A stretch of 64,000 nt of DNA from the human T2T-CHM13v2.0 reference genome, Homo sapiens. A program made the translations under genes and the position numbers. Shown here one piece after another: positions 14,323 to 23,325 of this stretch; position 1 is the first letter of the stretch, and the number at the start of each line of letters is the position of its first letter. The notes below the pieces were generated by a model, which was not told the origin of the DNA, did no database searches, and worked only from the letters and a program-made list of their open reading frames with translations. Where the stretch lies: the NCBI RefSeq assembly GCF_009914755.1, contig NC_060926.1. The stretch is one strand, 5' to 3'.

Positions 14323-14469
14323 CTTGTTGGAATCCTGGATTATCTTCACATTGTCTGCTCCAAATTTATCTGCATAGAGCTTGAGTAATCTTTGGGAAAT
14401 CTCGGACAGACCTGTCAGCTTAGGCTCTTTATAAATATACTCTTTACCTTCTTCTTCTTCAAAAAAGCC
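14323..14469 (-). CDS. DOCK10: DOCK10 coding exon (~51), DHR2 lobe B
   Basis: ccatag|GGC...AAG|gtaga; 147 nt; [49 protein letters not shown]. Confidence 0.97.
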
Positions 14470-15288
14470 CTATGGAACATAATGAACCACCAATTTTATT
14501 AGACAATGCTAATCATAAATCAAAAGCAAAACAAAAAGCCATTTACTTAAAAAACATATACAGTTTTTGGTTGTCATCTAATCCATTGGTTAACACCCTA
14601 TAAAATTCAAAATCGGAGAAGAAAACACAGTGAGAAAATAAAGTATCATCTTATAATCAGACATTAATGTAAATATTTCCTAGCCAGGCCAAAGAAACTC
14701 ATGAAATATCTTACAAATATTATTTTCTCTATTTGTAGAACTCAATGGTACTACCTACTTGCATATATTTTGGGGGAAGAATGCCCTCTTGTGGCAGCTT
14801 GGGGTAGAACACGAAATATGGAGCAATTTTTGGCAGCATTCAAAGAGCAGTCAGTATCATTTTTAATAAGATCTCCTGTAAGTCTTTGAAACTAACATAA
14901 GAAATGGTGTATGGCATGTAAAGCTATTTAAATGGGCTGACGTGCATCCCACATAATCTTAGATGAAAAACCACAACACTTTATGTAGTTGTCGTAACAG
15001 AAATTACATGTGTTATGCTCCCAAGTACTGCTATTTAAAAAATAACTTTACATCAACATGACTTCAGGGACCTCCTGAAACTTACCTATATGTAACTTAA
15101 TCATGCAATTCACCTTACTAAGAGATCTTTTACATTCTTGAAAAGGAAGACATTATAGGATTAAAAATAGCAATCATATCATCATTTTTATTCCACAAGA
15201 GCAAGTAGGTTTTAGCCTCTATTAATTTATTTGTCTGGTTTGAAGCAGGGGGAAGGGAAGATTCTATTAGCTGCAGATAACTAAGTGA

Positions 15289-15681
<393 letters not shown>

Positions 15682-16805
15682 TATATCTGGTTTCTTCTAA
15701 TTGTAGAGTTGACCCATAAGGAAATGCCTTTTGAGGTCTGGGTGAAGACACTGGATGTCAAAAGGAAACTTACCCATATTAAAAAATCAGTTTTGACTAT
15801 TTAAAAATATTAATTGTTAAAAAAAGCATAGGCAAAGTGTTCCAGTGCTATTATTTTTTCATGGTGAGACAATATAAGAATATTGATTAAACTCACATCT
15901 GTATGATGCTTTATACTTCAAAAGCACTTTCATACATGTAAATAGGATCATCTTTAACAGGGTAATTTGTATTCTAAGTGGGCTGTGGCTGTACCTTTGC
16001 AGAAGCCAATGAACAAGGTCTACTCCATAGCAGAATTCTTGGCAATCAGGTAATCACCTGCTTCCTTGCACATCTCCCTAATTGACTTTGGGCTTTCTAA
16101 AGGTGGGAAATGTGTCTTCAACATTGCATGCCCAGTGTTTAGCACAATGCCTGGTCTTTAGGAGGAGGTCACTCTATTTGTTGAACAAGCAGATGAATGA
16201 AAGAGTTCTTAAAGGGCACACATCTTAAAAAGGCGTATGTGTACCAGGCATAACTGGAAAATAGTCCATGGCTTTAAATAAAGATGTTTTTATTGAACAA
16301 TTTCTTCGAGAAATGTTCAAGACAAAATGCAAGTAATTATAAATGCCTTGACCCCAAACTGCTACAAAGTGTCATATGATGTTGAAAGCATGTAAAGCAG
16401 CTCCTGTCATTCCTGTAGACTTTGTAGGGGTAGTGAGGTCTGACTCCACTCCCACATGACTTCCAGCCTGCTATGTTTTTTTTCTGTTGCTGTCTTTGTG
16501 GAGTTTTGTCTGATTCAAGGTCAGGAGTTAGTGGCTACAATTGACAGACTGACACATCAGAGAAATAAGGCTTCTGAAGCTTTCAGGCGAATCCTCATGG
16601 GGCTAAAGCTGAAGCAACATTTGCAACTTCAATTTCAAGTAGAAAAATGTCTCTAAGGTTCAGGAAAAGATTTTTTCTTTTTCACCATAGTGTGAAAACT
16701 AGTACAAAGACACATTTTCACTGTAAAATTTTTCCCCTGACAAATTTCCGAATCTAGAGTGAGCAGAAAATGAGTGGTGGGAGGCAGGTAAAAATTGTCA
16801 TCATC

Positions 16806-17099
<294 letters not shown>

Positions 17100-18217
17100 T
17101 GTATTGCGGCCTTGCTCATAACCTGTGACTTTCTTTCATCCCTCCTCCTTGGGCTGTGGGATGGGAAAATTCAGACTCAGCAACCTACTTACTGGGAGGC
17201 TGTAAGGACCGCGCTTGGTAAACAGATGGCCTTTGGTGAGTGCTAGCTATGTTGAGGATGGTAATGATCATGACGCTGGTGGTGATGACAACAATGATGA
17301 AAAAACTCTGTATCTATAAAGCAATTTGAGTTCTGGCTTTTATGCAGCTTAACTCAGTTTTCAGTGCTCGAAAATACATACTTTCAGCTTCTCTTGCCTG
17401 GGCAACGGAGTTTTTCTTATTATAAAAGGTCTGTTGAAGCTCATTACAATATTTTGGCAAGTGATCAATTGGTGATTGGAACCTTTTTCTAAAGAGCTTG
17501 GAAATGTAAACCTGTTTTGTAAAATGAATAAGAAGGAGATGGAGGAGCAGAATAAAGCATTTACTCTGCTGTCCACTGGGGTTTCTGTAAAGAGTTTTGA
17601 AGCCAGACAAATGGCAGCTCTGAAAATGTTTGGAATGCATGCTTACCTTATACCCAGGGAAACTATCAAAGCAAAGCCCACTGAGCTACAGACACTATCT
17701 GAAGGAAGGCTTCAATTTCAGCTCTGTCTATGATATAAATGATTTACAAACAGGGACACAGAGTTATGAAAACCAGGGTCAGTTTCTCTTTTGCTTTAGC
17801 CCCAAGGTTATAAGCTGACTGCATTTCAAGGCAATGGGAAATGTGATCTCTGCACTTCCCTTGCTAGTTTGATTTTTAAAATGTCATTTTGCAATGCAGT
17901 AAACACCTTCTTCTGCTCTGGTCAAGAAAGAACACACACTAGTTAAACAAGGACTGCATGGATTATGAAACTTTAAGGCAATACATTATGGTAAAAATGT
18001 ACTTCAATAAACTGACAACTAAAAGCATTGACTCCTCCTCAGATGCTTTTGCAGGTACTTCAGAATCTTGCAATGTCCCTGGATCATCACTGTGTTGTCA
18101 AATATTAGGGCCCCTGGTATTTTATTAGACTCATTCAAAGTTCACAAAGAGAAGAATGTATTTGAGGAGGAATCTAGTATACAAAAGACAGGCCAGAAAA
18201 TGTCAATACTAGGCTAA

Positions 18218-18280
18218 ATGCTAAGAGAAGAGAAGCTACATGAATGAATTTCTCTGCATTCATGTAGCTTCTCTTAGCAT
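18218..18280. repeat. Inverted repeat / hairpin, 24-bp stem
   Basis: atgctaagagaa[gagaa]gctacatgaatg - aatttctctg - cattcatgtagcttctcttagcat. Confidence 0.92.
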
Positions 18281-18688
18281 ATAAATCTGAACTCAATTAT
18301 GACATTTAATTATACAGTATAGATATGTGGCCTAGATCAGCGACTTTCCTATAGGTGGAGAGCTATATCATGTCCCAAAGTGGAGATGATGGTTTTCCAT
18401 ACTACGCCTGCACCTTCCCTCCTCCCCCAAACTCCTTTTTTATTAAGATCCTGAGATGCAAGTACACCCATATAGGCATGACTGCAAATTATGGAATCTA
18501 TGGCCTTTGGTGGATAGAATAAAATTCTTCCAGGTCTTTTACTTAATTAATTCCAGGGGCATCTGATATTTTAAGTTATGTAATGGGTATTCACTTGCTT
18601 TCATGTTAAATACCAGGGCCTAAGGACTTCATTGATTATAGTCGATGTTTGCTCACTGCTGCTGTTTCATTACTATGGAAATCAATAC

Positions 18689-18724
18689 CTCAGGGACACT
18701 TTGGAGGACACTTTGTATAGGCTG
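18689..18724 (-). CDS. DOCK10: Candidate alternative 36-nt exon of DOCK10 (QPIQSVLQSVPE)
   Basis: atatag|CAG CCT ATA CAA AGT GTC CTC CAA AGT GTC CCT GAG|gtattg; stop-free, phase 0-0; TAGCAG tandem acceptor; weak pyrimidine tract. Confidence 0.6.
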
Positions 18725-19380
18725 CTATATGTCAAATTTCCATATTGATGCTGATGCCGGGTGTTGCATTAGACAATTCATGTTGTGCAAGACTTGCATT
18801 TTTTTAAAGTTCCTGCTATGAACGATCAGTTTTAAACTTGTTTTCTAGTGTCTGGCTCATTACAGACACAATTAGTATTAAATACCCCAGCCAAAACTAT
18901 AAAATGAGAGCAGTGGTCTGCGTGGGACACTAAAAAATTGTACCCAAAGGCCTTTGTGCAGGCAAAGAGCCTATTGCATATCATATTTCCATAATCTTTT
19001 TAACATCATTGCAAGACACGTCAACTTGGATATTAAAAGGTAAGTTTTACAGGGACATAAAGCACCATTATGAATAAGAAATCATTTCTGACCATGGAGA
19101 TTATGCTAATCAAGTAGTCAAGATTTTATCTTAAATCTTCGGAACCTTCATTCTGTACACGTTCGGGGGAATGCTCAAGTCTACTTGGTATTTATTTATC
19201 ATGGAATGTGAAGTGATATGTGCTGTCTGCTCCTGTTGAATCCCATAGTTCTCACTCTCCATGTGGTGTCTTGAGACAGGCATTTGAATCTCATCTGAGC
19301 AATGATGAATGAGGCTCTAATTTGCTGCTTATCAGGATGACCTCCATTGGTTCTCCTTGTTCAAAGGTGGCTGAGTTTGA

Positions 19381-19760
<380 letters not shown>

Positions 19761-20923
19761 TTGGAATTTTTTTATAAAGACAAGTGAGAGTACTGCAGCA
19801 TTAAAAAAAAAATCAGGTGTAAAATCAGCACACTTTACTGAGGAGTCTGAAAGAAGAATAAAGTTAGGTCATTTGCAAGGGCTCCCCCCAATACTTCCCC
19901 ACTGCCCCCCCTCAGTCTATTTAGTACAGGGGTTTTCAAGTATTCTTTTAGTAGGTGAGTTAAGGGCCCATAATCCCAAATTTATAAATGAACATAGAAA
20001 ATGCTGGTATGGTATGAATGTGGGAAGGAATTTAAAGAATTACAAAAAAGTATGTACTGGTCAGACAAGTAGGGCTGAATATGGACAATGTGTAGATATT
20101 AAATGCTTTCTCTTTCCAGCTTAACTGACAATAATTAGGTTGAACCATATAAAGTTGCCATTTTTGTACATAAAAAAGTGGTTGAATATAGGCAATTTCA
20201 TATGACTCAAAATAATATGAAGAAAATCCTTTGTCATAGAGCTCTGGGTACTGGCAGGTTATTTTGGACATGGCTTGTTCTCCAAATTTCTTACCTTGCT
20301 CCTTTCTCCATCTCTGGAGACTTACCCAGACATATTGGGTAAAGATTTATTCCCTGGTTCATCTTTTATGTTTGGAATTAGTCCCATCACCTCTGAGAAT
20401 GCTTAGAGCTCACCACCATAGACCCCCATCACTCTAAGACACTCCTTCAGAAAAAACACAGTTTTTTCAATATCTTGGGAGGTGCTTACCAATAACCATC
20501 ACTCCAACTTCCAAAATTCTGACCATTCTGGTCTCCTTAATAAGCTGCAACTCATAGTGGCCTGAAATAAGTAGACGATCTACAATACCAAGTCTATGCT
20601 ACATATATTTAAGATACGTGGTACCCATACTTATCTCTGTGTGTGTTTGTGTATGTAAGGCTTTCAGACTACATCTACCTTTAGGCAGAAAGCATGTATG
20701 AAAAACAAAGGATACATTTTTGTAATTCAGATAACTGGCATAAACACAACTTAGTTAAAGAAATGCAGGATGACTCCAAAAATGAATGAAAGCAGGATTA
20801 TCTCTCCCTTTGTACCAAATGGTGATTTGCACAAAAAGGTTAAGGTTCAGTAAAACCATACAGAGGGAAGTGTGAGGGGTGTTAGAGCATGCAAATGGAG
20901 AGCGAGAGTGAGTGAGAACTTAC

Positions 20924-20929
20924 CACAGC
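20924..20929 (-). CDS. DOCK10: Candidate alternative 6-nt microexon of DOCK10 (Ala-Val)
   Basis: ctcttttcttcttttggtcttgattgttccag|GCTGTG|gtaagt; phase 0-0 in the intron between ...FYGQ and GFFE...; TGCATG ~30 nt downstream (20888-20893). Confidence 0.75.
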
Positions 20930-21677
20930 CTGGAACAATCAAGACCAAAAGAAGAAAAGAGTAAACATCTGCATTAAAAACTATTTGAAAAGCAGCGTGA
21001 TTCACTTCTACCTGCTTTAGAGCCCATATCTCATATATTGGTTGCAGAAACCATCTGGTAGGCAATCCTGTTTTCATGATCAGGTTATTAACGGGGTTTT
21101 TTACTTTTTCATTGGAAGGAATGCCTGAGGCTTTATAGAGTCATGTCTTGGTGACCCAGAAGCACATCTTTTGTGCTACTTCTGTGCTGCTCAGTTAGCC
21201 TGTGGCCATCTCCCTTGAAACTCTGTTTTTCCCTTTCAATTCTTCTGCTCCCACATCCCCTTCCCGACTCATATAGCATTTTCTGCCATTTTTCTTGCTG
21301 TCTCACCAATGTCACAAATTGTATATTTTCTTCATGGCTTCCAAAATGGCTCCAAAATGCCATTTTCTCTTCTCTCTCTTCCTCTTCTGAAGGTTCTCAC
21401 ACTTCTCTCTCTCCCAATGTGTGTTCTCACTTCAGATAGTTCAGATTCTTTTCCATGGACCCCAAAAATGTCTAAATTTGCTTTTTTTTTTTGGTATAGA
21501 TTGTTTATGCAGATCCCCATTTTTCAGACCATTCGTTTCTCTGTCTCCACTATCCTGATATTCCTGTGTCCTGAGAAAAATCCCGGCTGGATTAATTTGT
21601 TTATAATAAATGGCTACTTGGTGATACTTATCTTTTCCAGGTAGAAAGTATCTGCCTTTATTAATTCAAAGGTTAGC

Positions 21678-23211: not shown

Positions 23212-23325
23212 CTGCCCATAAAATGCCACACGATAGTAGCGACCAAACAGCCGCTTCTCCGAATTCACCACCTCTGCCACTTTCAGATATGACCGATGAA
23301 TGTCGTAGTAGAGATCTGACAATTT
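23212..23325 (-). CDS. DOCK10: DOCK10 coding exon (~50)
   Basis: ttcag|AAA...CAG|gtaagt; 114 nt; KLSDLYYDIHRSYLKVAEVVNSEKRLFGRYYRVAFYGQ. Confidence 0.97.

What the first reader, a model, noticed from the sequence alone, without database searches (positions are those of the whole stretch)
20881..20975. 6-nt microexon with neural/muscle-type splicing code
Seen on the minus strand: a long U/C tract, ttccag|GCTGTG|gtaagt (consensus donor), then a CU-rich run, TGCATG at about +30 (20888-20893) and CTCTAAC right after. Established: downstream UGCAUG bound by RBFOX promotes inclusion, and CUAAC-type motifs are QKI/SF1 sites. A UGC lies only ~40 nt upstream, so SRRM4 dependence is uncertain. Use of the upstream AG at 20969-20970 would give a 45-nt exon containing TGA (a poison variant).
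Basis: partly seen in the sequence, partly recalled or inferred. Interest (0 to 1): 0.7.

Follow-up and report, generated by a model that had tools for sequence, protein, structure and literature searches.

The report
Conserved 6-base DOCK10 microexon (Ala-Val)
The flagged six bases are a genuine, evolutionarily conserved alternative mini-exon of the DOCK10 gene that adds two amino acids to its catalytic domain, matching a known mini-exon in the sister gene DOCK9; which tissues use it was not shown here.

Summary
The sequence is exactly as described: minus strand ttccag|GCTGTG|gtaagt at 20924-20929, TGCATG at +31, CTCTAAC after it, and an upstream AG giving a 45-nt variant with an in-frame TGA. 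As a motif it is at chance level (1 found, 1.0 expected; PWM control).

Independent evidence shows it is a real cassette microexon. It is in phase 0 and inserts Ala-Val between DOCK10 exons 23212-23325 and 14323-14469. Twelve of 114 DOCK10 protein records with usable context read ...AFYGQ-AV-GFFEEEE... These come from chimpanzee, rodents, a mole, a marsupial and two frogs; a Komodo dragon model reads VSAV. The homologous DOCK9 intron carries aag|GCAGCG|gtaagttct (Ala-Ala), present in DOCK9 models down to paddlefish and listed in print as a 6-nt microexon. A shared 17-mer pattern occurs only 9 times in the genome, and 2 of those are these sites.

Human RefSeq annotates only the acceptor, as the start of terminal exon 14476-20929. 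The RBFOX/QKI/SRRM4 reading is untested: UGCAUG is present, the canonical QKI core is absent, and the nearest upstream UGC is at -44. This is a known kind, already in databases. Interest is low to moderate.

The parts
20924..20929 (-). 6-nt cassette microexon GCTGTG. It is in phase 0 and encodes Ala-Val.
   Evidence: The sequence is and the translation begins AV.... Flanking exon phases come (...tat ggg cag| and |ggc ttt ttt). The AV insertion is present in 12 DOCK10 protein records from other species.
20930..20961 (-). 3' splice site: AG at 20931-20930 preceded by a pyrimidine tract (75% Y over -3..-42) with no intervening AG.
   Evidence: The acceptor PWM score is 9.42, and 5 of 29 true acceptors score higher. 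The same acceptor starts RefSeq exon 14476-20929 (hub annotation).
20962..20962 (-). Putative branch-point A in tgtttAc, 32 nt upstream of the AG. This is an inference only.
   Evidence: Read. It was not tested.
20918..20923 (-). 5' splice site gtaagt. With the last exon G it gives 7 consecutive consensus positions.
   Evidence: The donor score is 7.65, and 16 of 28 true donors score higher. gtaagttct is identical at the DOCK9 microexon.
20888..20893 (-). TGCATG (RBFOX-type hexamer) at +31 from the donor.
   Evidence: The chance of one or more within 100 nt is about 0.022.
20872..20915 (-). YCAY cluster (TCAC, TCAC, CCAT, TCAC at +9, +13, +26, +49) inside the CU-rich run. This is a NOVA-type signal.
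   Evidence: 3.7% of 70-nt windows on this strand have 4 or more.
20881..20887 (-). CTCTAAC. Its TAA (20884-20882) is the stop codon of the read-through frame AVVSSHSLSLSICML*. It is not a canonical QKI ACUAAY core.
20969..20973 (-). Upstream TGC (20973-20971, -44) overlapping the alternative AG (20970-20969). That AG would give a 45-nt exon with an in-frame TGA.
   Evidence: The alternative acceptor PWM score is 6.27, and 14 of 29 true acceptors score higher.
23212..23325 (-). Upstream constitutive DOCK10 exon, ending ...RVAFYGQ (Gln1886).
   Evidence: The residue number is derived from the 6tky construct 1695-2151.
14323..14469 (-). Downstream constitutive DOCK10 exon, starting [16 protein letters not shown] (Gly1887).
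14476..20929 (-). RefSeq alternative terminal exon (6454 nt). It uses the microexon's acceptor but not its donor. The coding part is AVVSSHSLSLSICML*.
   Evidence: Hub annotation.
14495..14500 (-). AATAAA, 19 nt before the annotated transcript end at 14476. This is a likely intronic poly(A) signal just upstream of the next exon's 3' splice site.

Best explanation
Identity (shown or strongly supported; about 0.85-0.9). Window 20924-20929 (minus strand) is a genuine, conserved, frame-preserving 6-nt alternative cassette exon of DOCK10. When included, it inserts Ala-Val between Gln1886 and Gly1887. That point is the start of the loop between the first two beta-strands of lobe B of the catalytic DHR2 (GEF) domain. 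The exon is the paralogous counterpart of the 6-nt Ala-Ala microexon of DOCK9, so it most likely predates the DOCK9/DOCK10 duplication. DOCK11 lacks it. Human RefSeq annotates only its acceptor, as the start of a 6.45-kb terminal exon. That exon would give a DHR2-truncated protein ending AVVSSHSLSLSICML*.

Mechanism (inferred; about 0.45). The tiny exon is recognised through a strong pyrimidine tract and 3' splice site, plus a gtaagt donor. Skipping is the default form. Inclusion is promoted from the downstream intron by RBFOX binding UGCAUG at +31, possibly together with NOVA on the YCAY cluster at +9 to +52. This would give neuron-enriched (perhaps also muscle) inclusion rather than SRRM3/4 (eMIC) dependence. 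At the protein level, the two residues lengthen the acidic [10 protein letters not shown] hairpin loop of lobe B from 10 to 12 residues. Lobe B, with lobe C, forms the GTPase-binding catalytic centre, so this plausibly tunes GEF activity or a regulatory contact without abolishing the fold.
For: Sequence and frame.

Acceptor: it is independently annotated in the hub table as the start of exon 14476-20929.

Orthologs.
- A search with the downstream exon returned 848 hits, of which 120 were listed.
- Of those 120, 82 read RVAFYGQ|GFFEEEE and 12 read AFYGQ-AV-GFFEEEE.
- The 12 are Pan troglodytes, Cavia, Chinchilla, Jaculus, Nannospalax, Condylura, Gracilinanus, Xenopus laevis and 4 Engystomops models.
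- Varanus reads VSAV.
- The chimpanzee record continues into the next two exons and is identical to the human translation there.

Paralog.
- The DOCK9 homologous intron has a long Y-tract followed by aag|GCAGCG|gtaagttct.
- Of 119 DOCK9-side records, 11 carry AA at this junction. Ten of these also carry a 12-residue exon and one carries AA alone. They include turtle, lizards and the paddlefish Polyodon.
- PMC8627023 Table 3 lists a 6-nt DOCK9 microexon as literature-reported, citing Irimia 2014.

Genome-wide: AGGCNGNGGTAAGTTCT occurs 9 times in 3.1 Gb, against 0 for the reversed control. Two of the 9 are these two homologous introns, in the sense orientation.

Splice-site scores lie within the range of real DOCK10 exons.

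Skipping is common.
- 94 of 142 records skip the exon.
- All solved DOCK10 DHR2 chains lack AV: 6tky, 6tkz, 6tm1, 8i5f, 8i5v, 8i5w.

Position in the protein.
- The construct spans 1695-2151, and lobes B and C contact CDC42/RAC.
- The AF2 model has a strand at 23-31, a loop at 32-43 containing AV, and a strand at 44-49.

Regulation.
- TGCATG lies at +31 and the YCAY cluster follows.
- The abstract of Li et al. 2015 states that RBFOX proteins promote micro-exon inclusion in brain, muscle and heart.
Against: - I could obtain no human RNA evidence (junction reads, PSI).
- None of the 24 human RefSeq transcripts has the 6-nt exon as a cassette (hub table).
- Gene models are predictions. Some Ensembl models may be projected from one another, so the 12 AV records are not 12 independent observations.
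- The motif itself is at chance level.
- The regulator assignment rests on single short motifs with uncorrected chance levels of 2-6%.
- I could not test their conservation because no other vertebrate genome is held.
- The DOCK9 paralog has its only downstream TGCATG at +175 and no YCAY cluster near the donor.
- No DOCK10 splicing event appears in the supplements I could search: Li 2015, Quesnel-Vallieres 2015, MicroExonator, Head 2021 files 1-12 and the CHyMErA-seq paper. Each of these had files unsearched or uses coordinates rather than gene names.
- The AF2 model is of low confidence overall (mean pLDDT 54; 63-83 around the site).
Confidence: 0.5

Rival explanations
1. The microexon is real and conserved, but its inclusion depends on SRRM3/SRRM4 (the eMIC neuronal or endocrine microexon programme) rather than on RBFOX or NOVA.
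For: The exon is very short (6 nt) and sits in a DOCK-family gene. The paralog DOCK9 has SRRM4-induced exons in the same gene. These include the 36-nt exon of the same intron, HsaEX0020665, whose PSI goes from 0 to 41 on SRRM4 expression (mapped to the intron). One UGC lies upstream at -44, and at -45 in DOCK9. That most very short neuronal microexons are SRRM4-dependent is recalled knowledge, not from a call.
Against: The only upstream UGC is about 44 nt from the exon, beyond the pyrimidine tract, rather than next to the AG. The 3' splice site is strong rather than weak. Neither a DOCK10 event nor the DOCK9 6-nt exon is in the SRRM4-induced list of Head 2021 file 7. DOCK10 expression in those cells is unknown, and files 13-19 were not searched.
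Confidence: 0.22
2. The microexon is real but has no sharp tissue switch. It is included at a low or intermediate level wherever DOCK10 is expressed (lymphocytes, microglia, neurons), and the nearby motifs are coincidental.
For: The splice sites are strong enough to work without enhancers. The motifs are individually near chance and are not shared with DOCK9. Annotation pipelines pick up AV isoforms in very different species, so the transcripts are not rare there.
Against: Exons this short normally need help to be defined; this is established knowledge, and the Li 2015 abstract says the same. Five unnamed transcript-like clusters in the protein database (P0007, P0009, P0011, P0030, P0040; 102 member sequences) all lack AV.
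Confidence: 0.15
3. In human, the acceptor at 20929 serves only the annotated alternative terminal exon 14476-20929 (an intronic-polyadenylation isoform ending AVVSSHSLSLSICML*). The 6-nt cassette is not used.
For: This is the only human RefSeq use of the site (hub table). An AATAAA lies 19 nt before the annotated end. The read-through frame stops after 15 codons.
Against: The gtaagt donor directly follows the six bases. The human sequence encodes exactly the AV seen in other mammals and frogs. The chimpanzee record with AV joined to the downstream exons is identical to the human translation. The RefSeq model could itself stem from reads of the first junction of the cassette form; this is an inference.
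Confidence: 0.1
4. A chance AG-N6-GTAAGT in a long intron, with no function.
For: The motif frequency is at expectation.
Against: Orthologous AV models, the paralogous DOCK9 exon, and the genome-wide rarity of the shared 17-mer.
Confidence: 0.03

Closest known systems
DOCK9 6-nt microexon (hg19 chr13:99,461,376, length 6; listed in PMC8627023 Table 3 with Irimia et al. 2014 as source)
   Same: It sits at the same intron position and phase in the paralogous gene. The architecture matches: a long pyrimidine tract, a 6-nt exon GCNGNG, and the donor gtaagttct. It inserts two small hydrophobic residues (AA versus AV) before GFFE(D/E)... in DHR2 lobe B.
   Different: The DOCK9 intron is 1.5 kb and also holds a 36-nt exon (QYQFTDSETDVE) that is SRRM4-induced. 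I found no counterpart of that exon in the 8.7-kb DOCK10 intron. The flanking intron sequence is not alignable, and TGCATG is at +175 rather than +31. I inferred, but did not verify, that the hg19 coordinate equals my T2T site. The hg38 position of the neighbouring 36-nt exon is consistent with it.
RBFOX- and PTBP1-regulated micro-exons (Li et al. 2015, Genome Res; abstract and outline seen)
   Same: A very short exon with strong splice signals, a downstream UGCAUG and flanking CU-rich tracts.
   Different: No CLIP, knock-down or tissue data exist for this exon. DOCK10 was not found in the 5 supplementary files I could search (file 1 unsearched).
SRRM4/eMIC-dependent neuronal microexons (Irimia 2014, not held; Head et al. 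2021 supplements seen)
   Same: The size class (3-27 nt), frame preservation, deep conservation, and location in or next to a protein interaction domain.
   Different: There is no UGC close to the 3' splice site, and that splice site is strong. The exon is absent from the SRRM4-responsive list I searched.
Composite terminal exon with intronic polyadenylation
   Same: RefSeq exon 14476-20929 starts at the same acceptor and ends after an AATAAA.
   Different: That isoform truncates the DHR2 domain. The cassette form keeps it intact.

Membership tests
Vertebrate alternative microexon (3-27 nt cassette) | Length of 3-27 nt, flanked by AG and GT | tested here: met
   The exon is 6 nt and reads cag|GCTGTG|gtaagt. 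The splice-site scores lie within the range of the window's real exons.
Vertebrate alternative microexon (3-27 nt cassette) | Preserves the reading frame | tested here: met
   It lies in phase 0 between ...YGQ and GFF..., and adds AV.
Vertebrate alternative microexon (3-27 nt cassette) | Both inclusion and skipping forms exist in transcripts | tested here: inconclusive
   Both forms occur among gene models of other species: 12 AV and 94 skip among 142 records.
Vertebrate alternative microexon (3-27 nt cassette) | Evolutionary conservation | tested here: met
   AV is found in primate, rodents, mole, marsupial, lizard (as VSAV) and two frogs. The paralogous AA exon in DOCK9 extends to paddlefish.
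Neural (SRRM4/eMIC-dependent) microexon programme | UGC-containing enhancer close to the 3' splice site | tested here: not met
   The nearest upstream TGC is at -44, and there is none between it and the AG.
Neural (SRRM4/eMIC-dependent) microexon programme | Neural-specific PSI and a response to SRRM4 | not testable with these tools
   No expression data were available. There is no DOCK10 event in Head 2021 files 1-12.
RBFOX-enhanced exon | (U)GCAUG in the downstream intron within about 300 nt | tested here: met
   TGCATG is at +31, and it is the only copy within 300 nt.
RBFOX-enhanced exon | Motif conservation, CLIP binding and a response to RBFOX loss | not testable with these tools
   No other vertebrate genome and no CLIP data are held. 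The paralog has TGCATG at +175.
QKI-regulated exon | ACUAAY core (with a UAAY half-site) near the exon | tested here: not met
   There is no ACTAAY within 300 nt on either side. There is only CTAAC at +39, preceded by T.
NOVA-regulated exon | YCAY cluster near the exon | tested here: met
   There are 4 YCAY at +9, +13, +26 and +49; 3.7% of 70-nt windows have as many. Binding was not tested.

The most novel reading that the evidence does not exclude
The 2-residue insertion is an ancient isoform switch of the DOCK-D subfamily: AV in DOCK10 and AA in DOCK9, both at the start of the beta1-beta2 hairpin loop of DHR2 lobe B. It would have been present before the DOCK9/DOCK10 duplication and lost in DOCK11. 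It would change GEF output (rate, CDC42-versus-RAC preference, or an autoregulatory or dimer contact) in the cell types that include it. If so, every biochemical and structural study of DOCK10 so far has used only the skipping form.
Probability: 0.2. Interest if true: 0.55.

Novelty: already known. Interest (0 to 1): 0.3.

Why it matters
DOCK10 is a CDC42/RAC exchange factor with roles in B cells, amoeboid migration and dendritic spines (passages seen).

A conserved 2-residue insertion in the catalytic DHR2 domain is missing from the human RefSeq cassette annotation. It is also absent from all six solved DOCK10 DHR2 entries.

Practical consequences:
- RNA-seq aligners and annotation can mis-assign reads of this exon to the long 'terminal exon'.
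- Variants in these 6 bases or their splice sites would be read as deep-intronic.
- The functional difference between the two isoforms is untested.

It is, however, an ordinary member of a well-described class.

Tried and rejected
Literature, main text:
- DOCK10 + microexon gave 3 papers, none about this exon.
- DOCK10 + micro-exon gave 0 papers.
- DOCK10 + SRRM4 gave 4 papers, judged from the listing only, none relevant.
- Dock10 + Rbfox gave 29 papers, 24 listed. Only PMC8975553 touches Dock10 splicing (B-cell development, no exon given).
- Irimia 2014 (PMC4390143) is not held.

Supplements with no DOCK10 splicing event:
- Li 2015 (file 1 unsearched).
- Quesnel-Vallieres 2015 (file 6 unsearched).
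- MicroExonator (its tables may use coordinates rather than gene names).
- Head 2021 files 1-12 (files 13-19 unsearched).
- CHyMErA-seq paper (1 file held).
[quoted passage not shown] It has a Table S4 of DOCK10 junction coordinates, but that table is not held. I cannot say whether it concerns this site.

Other dead ends:
- The Nova2 paper's Dock9 'exon 37a plus 37b' could not be tied to the DHR2 microexon, so I do not use it.
- RNA folding of 20860-20990 pairs the upstream AUGCAGAUG with the downstream CAUUUGCAU and loops out the exon. The z-score is only -0.32, and 70 of 200 shuffles fold as well, so I rejected it as a signal.
- The bacterial promoter/terminator scan is not applicable to this genome.
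- I rejected a recursive-splice-site reading, because joining the upstream exon to GCTGTG does not recreate a donor.
- A search for a DOCK10 counterpart of the DOCK9 36-nt exon gave best local scores of 19-23 against a self-score of 63. None was found.
- I did not run a structure search with the AF2 model, because its confidence is low.
Full report
OBSERVATION

On the minus strand the window reads ...tcttttcttcttttggtcttgattgttccag|GCTGTG|gtaagttctcactcactctcgctctccatttgcatgctctaacacc....
- The six bases are 20929-20924.
- The AG is 20931-20930 and the gtaagt donor is 20923-18.
- TGCATG is 20893-20888, at +31.
- CTCTAAC is 20887-20881.
- The only nearby upstream TGC is at -44.
- The upstream AG at 20970-20969 would give a 45-nt exon reading MFTLFFFWS*LFQAV.

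IS IT MORE THAN CHANCE?

The motif alone is not.
- YAGNNNNNNGTAAGT occurs once against 1.00 expected; 64 of 100 shuffles had at least one.
- I built a crude weight matrix from the 28 donors and 29 acceptors annotated in the window. The candidate donor scores 7.65 bits, and 16 of 28 true donors score higher. The acceptor scores 9.42, and 5 of 29 score higher.
- Pairs of that quality 3-30 nt apart occur twice on the sense strand (this one, and one inside exon 14469) and three times on the antisense strand.
- TGCATG is not enriched in the window: 36 found against 45.9 expected.

FRAME AND ANNOTATION

The upstream exon 23212-23325 ends ...tat ggg cag. The downstream exon 14323-14469 starts ggc ttt ttt. 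The six bases therefore sit in phase 0 and add Ala-Val, giving ...[25 protein letters not shown]....

The hub's RefSeq table lists no 6-nt exon. It does list an exon 14476-20929 in another transcript, so the same acceptor is already an annotated splice site. Read through the donor, the frame is AVVSSHSLSLSICML*. The stop is the TAA inside CTCTAAC. An AATAAA lies 19 nt before the annotated end at 14476, only six bases before the next exon.

ORTHOLOGS

- A protein search with the downstream exon (49 aa, longer proteins only, 87-2000 aa) gave 848 hits, of which 120 were listed.
- Of the 120, 82 read RVAFYGQ|GFFEEEE and 12 read AFYGQ-AV-GFFEEEE. Ten did not match my pattern. Sixteen had other contexts, mostly short open frames that begin in the intron.
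- The 12 are Pan troglodytes (P0005), Cavia, Chinchilla, Jaculus, Nannospalax, Condylura, Gracilinanus, Xenopus laevis and four Engystomops models.
- P0005 continues through the next exons and is identical to the human translation there.
- A second search with P0005 added 22 records.
- Over all 142 records, the tally is 94 skip, 12 AV, 1 VSAV (Varanus), 2 VS and 1 VR (teleosts), 4 bird-type VSQL/VSCL variants, and 28 without usable context. The 28 include two Salmo models reading YGL-VS-G.
- VS and VSQL look like read-through of the gtaagt donor to a nearby downstream GT. I could not check the DNA.
- These are gene models. Some may be projections of one another, so they are not independent counts. 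They do require the same 6-nt exon to exist in each genome.

PARALOGS

- The two flanking exons each find DOCK9 (contig 13) and DOCK11 (contig 23) in the window's own genome.
- In the homologous 1.5-kb DOCK9 intron I found ctttctgctttttttctttcttcctgtcttttctttattactttcttaag|GCAGCG|gtaagttct. It is in phase 0 and encodes Ala-Ala.
- 447 nt further on lies a 36-nt exon encoding QYQFTDSETDVE.
- Only AG-GCNGNG-GTAAGTTCT is shared between the DOCK9 and DOCK10 sites; the rest of the flanks does not align.
- That 17-mer pattern occurs 9 times in the 3.1-Gb genome, against 0 for the reversed control. Two of the nine are these two sites.
- A search with the DOCK9 downstream exon listed 120 proteins. Of the 119 new ones, 49 skip, 10 carry AA plus the 12-residue exon, 8 carry the 12 residues alone, 1 carries AA alone, 1 is another variant, and 50 have no usable context.
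- The AA carriers include a turtle, two lizards and the paddlefish Polyodon.
- PMC8627023 Table 3 lists 'DOCK9 chr13:99,461,376, length 6' among literature-reported functional microexons, citing Irimia et al. 2014. I saw that table and the reference list, not the Irimia paper, which is not held.
- Head et al. 2021 give the 36-nt exon as hg38 chr13:98808640-98808675, SRRM4-induced. This places the 6-nt exon about 450 nt upstream, consistent with my site. I did not verify the lift between assemblies.
- The 541-nt DOCK11 intron has no such exon.
- No counterpart of the 36-nt exon is detectable in the DOCK10 intron.

WHAT IT IS

It is a genuine, conserved, frame-preserving alternative microexon of DOCK10, paralogous to the DOCK9 6-nt microexon. 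Most likely it is older than the DOCK9/DOCK10 split. I put this at about 0.85-0.9.

PLACE IN THE PROTEIN

- The upstream exon maps to residues 155-192 of chain 6tky_B and the downstream exon to 193-241.
- The construct is residues 1695-2151 (passages of the bioRxiv paper 10.1101/2022.06.15.496229). The insertion therefore lies between Gln1886 and Gly1887.
- All solved DOCK10 DHR2 chains lack AV: 6tky, 6tkz, 6tm1, 8i5f, 8i5v and 8i5w.
- The same paper states that lobe B has two antiparallel beta-sheets and that lobes B and C contact CDC42/RAC.
- An AlphaFold2 model of P0005 with a 34-sequence alignment is weak overall (mean pLDDT 54; 63-83 over residues 21-100).
- The model places RYYRVAFYG in a strand, [12 protein letters not shown] in a loop and EYIYKE in the next strand. 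AV therefore lengthens a hairpin loop.
- The effect on GEF activity is inference only.

REGULATION

- UGCAUG at +31 has a chance of about 0.022 within 100 nt.
That is a NOVA-type cluster.
- CTAAC has a chance of about 0.064, but no canonical ACTAAY is present within 300 nt.
- These figures are not corrected for multiple motifs, and I could not test conservation.
- In DOCK9 the only downstream TGCATG is at +175. There are no YCAY within 130 nt of the donor, and the upstream TGC is at -45.
- The abstract of Li et al. 2015 says RBFOX proteins promote micro-exon inclusion in brain, muscle and heart, and that PTBP1 also acts.
- I therefore rank the possibilities as follows: RBFOX with or without NOVA enhancement at about 0.45, SRRM3/4 dependence at about 0.22, no sharp switch at about 0.15, and terminal-exon-only use in human at about 0.1.
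- Skipping is clearly the commoner annotated form. Five unnamed transcript-like clusters (102 member sequences) all lack AV.

COMPARISON AND NOVELTY

This is a standard vertebrate microexon. It meets the structural, frame and conservation criteria. It does not meet the sequence hallmark of the SRRM4 class (a UGC next to the AG) or of QKI targets. It does meet the simple sequence criteria for RBFOX and NOVA targets.

The exon is already in public protein records of many species, and its paralog is in print. I found no paper that discusses the DOCK10 exon itself. Human RefSeq on T2T lacks it as a cassette. That the chimpanzee record is a projection of a human GENCODE transcript is my recollection of how such records were made, not a result from any call.

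VERDICT

The interpretation as a microexon is supported. The proposed regulators are untested. The kind is known, and interest is low to moderate (0.3).

Noticed in passing
L012:1027-1062 (-) = G000:C13:98018542-98018577; L012:1510-1515 (-) = C13:98019025-98019030: The homologous DOCK9 intron holds two alternative exons: the 6-nt Ala-Ala microexon and a 36-nt exon (QYQFTDSETDVE). DOCK9 protein models show all four combinations. Head 2021 lists the 36-nt exon as SRRM4-induced (PSI 0 to 41).
   Followed up: yes
L003, about G000:C23:117054075-117054095 (+), DOCK11 intron: The 541-nt DOCK11 intron has no 6-nt exon. It does contain aaaaacag|gtaagtgtac, an AG directly abutting a copy of the first 10 bases of the intron's own donor. 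This could be a remnant of a lost microexon, a small duplication, or chance.
   Followed up: no
L007, G000:C14:39053033-39053170 (-): An intron-less DOCK11-like copy on contig 14, with an open frame of 304 aa. It reads ...[18 protein letters not shown]... straight across the junction, so it is probably a processed pseudogene made from a transcript without any insert.
   Followed up: no
window 14476-14500 (-): An AATAAA lies 19 nt before the end of RefSeq exon 14476-20929. That end is only six bases upstream of the 3' splice site of exon 14323-14469. A poly(A) site would thus be embedded in the polypyrimidine/AG region of a constitutive exon.
   Followed up: partly
window 14448-14469 (-): Inside the constitutive exon, GAAG|gtaaag scores as a good pseudo-donor 22 nt after the acceptor (PWM 8.68). 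It lies within the GAAGAAGAAGAAG run that encodes EEEE.
   Followed up: no
Proteins P0057, P0081, P0083, P0091 (birds); P0131, P0133-P0135, P0142 (teleosts); P0121 (Varanus): At the same junction, bird DOCK10 models carry VSQL/VSCL and fish models carry VS/VR. Varanus has VSAV. V-S is what a gtaagt donor encodes when read through, so these look like alternative downstream donors or model artefacts rather than the AV exon.
   Followed up: partly
window 20860-20990 (-): The upstream AUGCAGAUG (which contains the -44 UGC and the alternative AG) can pair with the downstream CAUUUGCAU (which contains the RBFOX hexamer), looping out the microexon. The fold is no better than shuffles (z = -0.32).
   Followed up: yes
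PMC12424998 (text; Table S4 not held): A preprint reports altered DOCK10 splicing in Parkinson-mutant dopaminergic cells and Lewy-body brains. [quoted passage not shown] The coordinates could not be seen, so any relation to the 20929 acceptor is unknown.
   Followed up: partly
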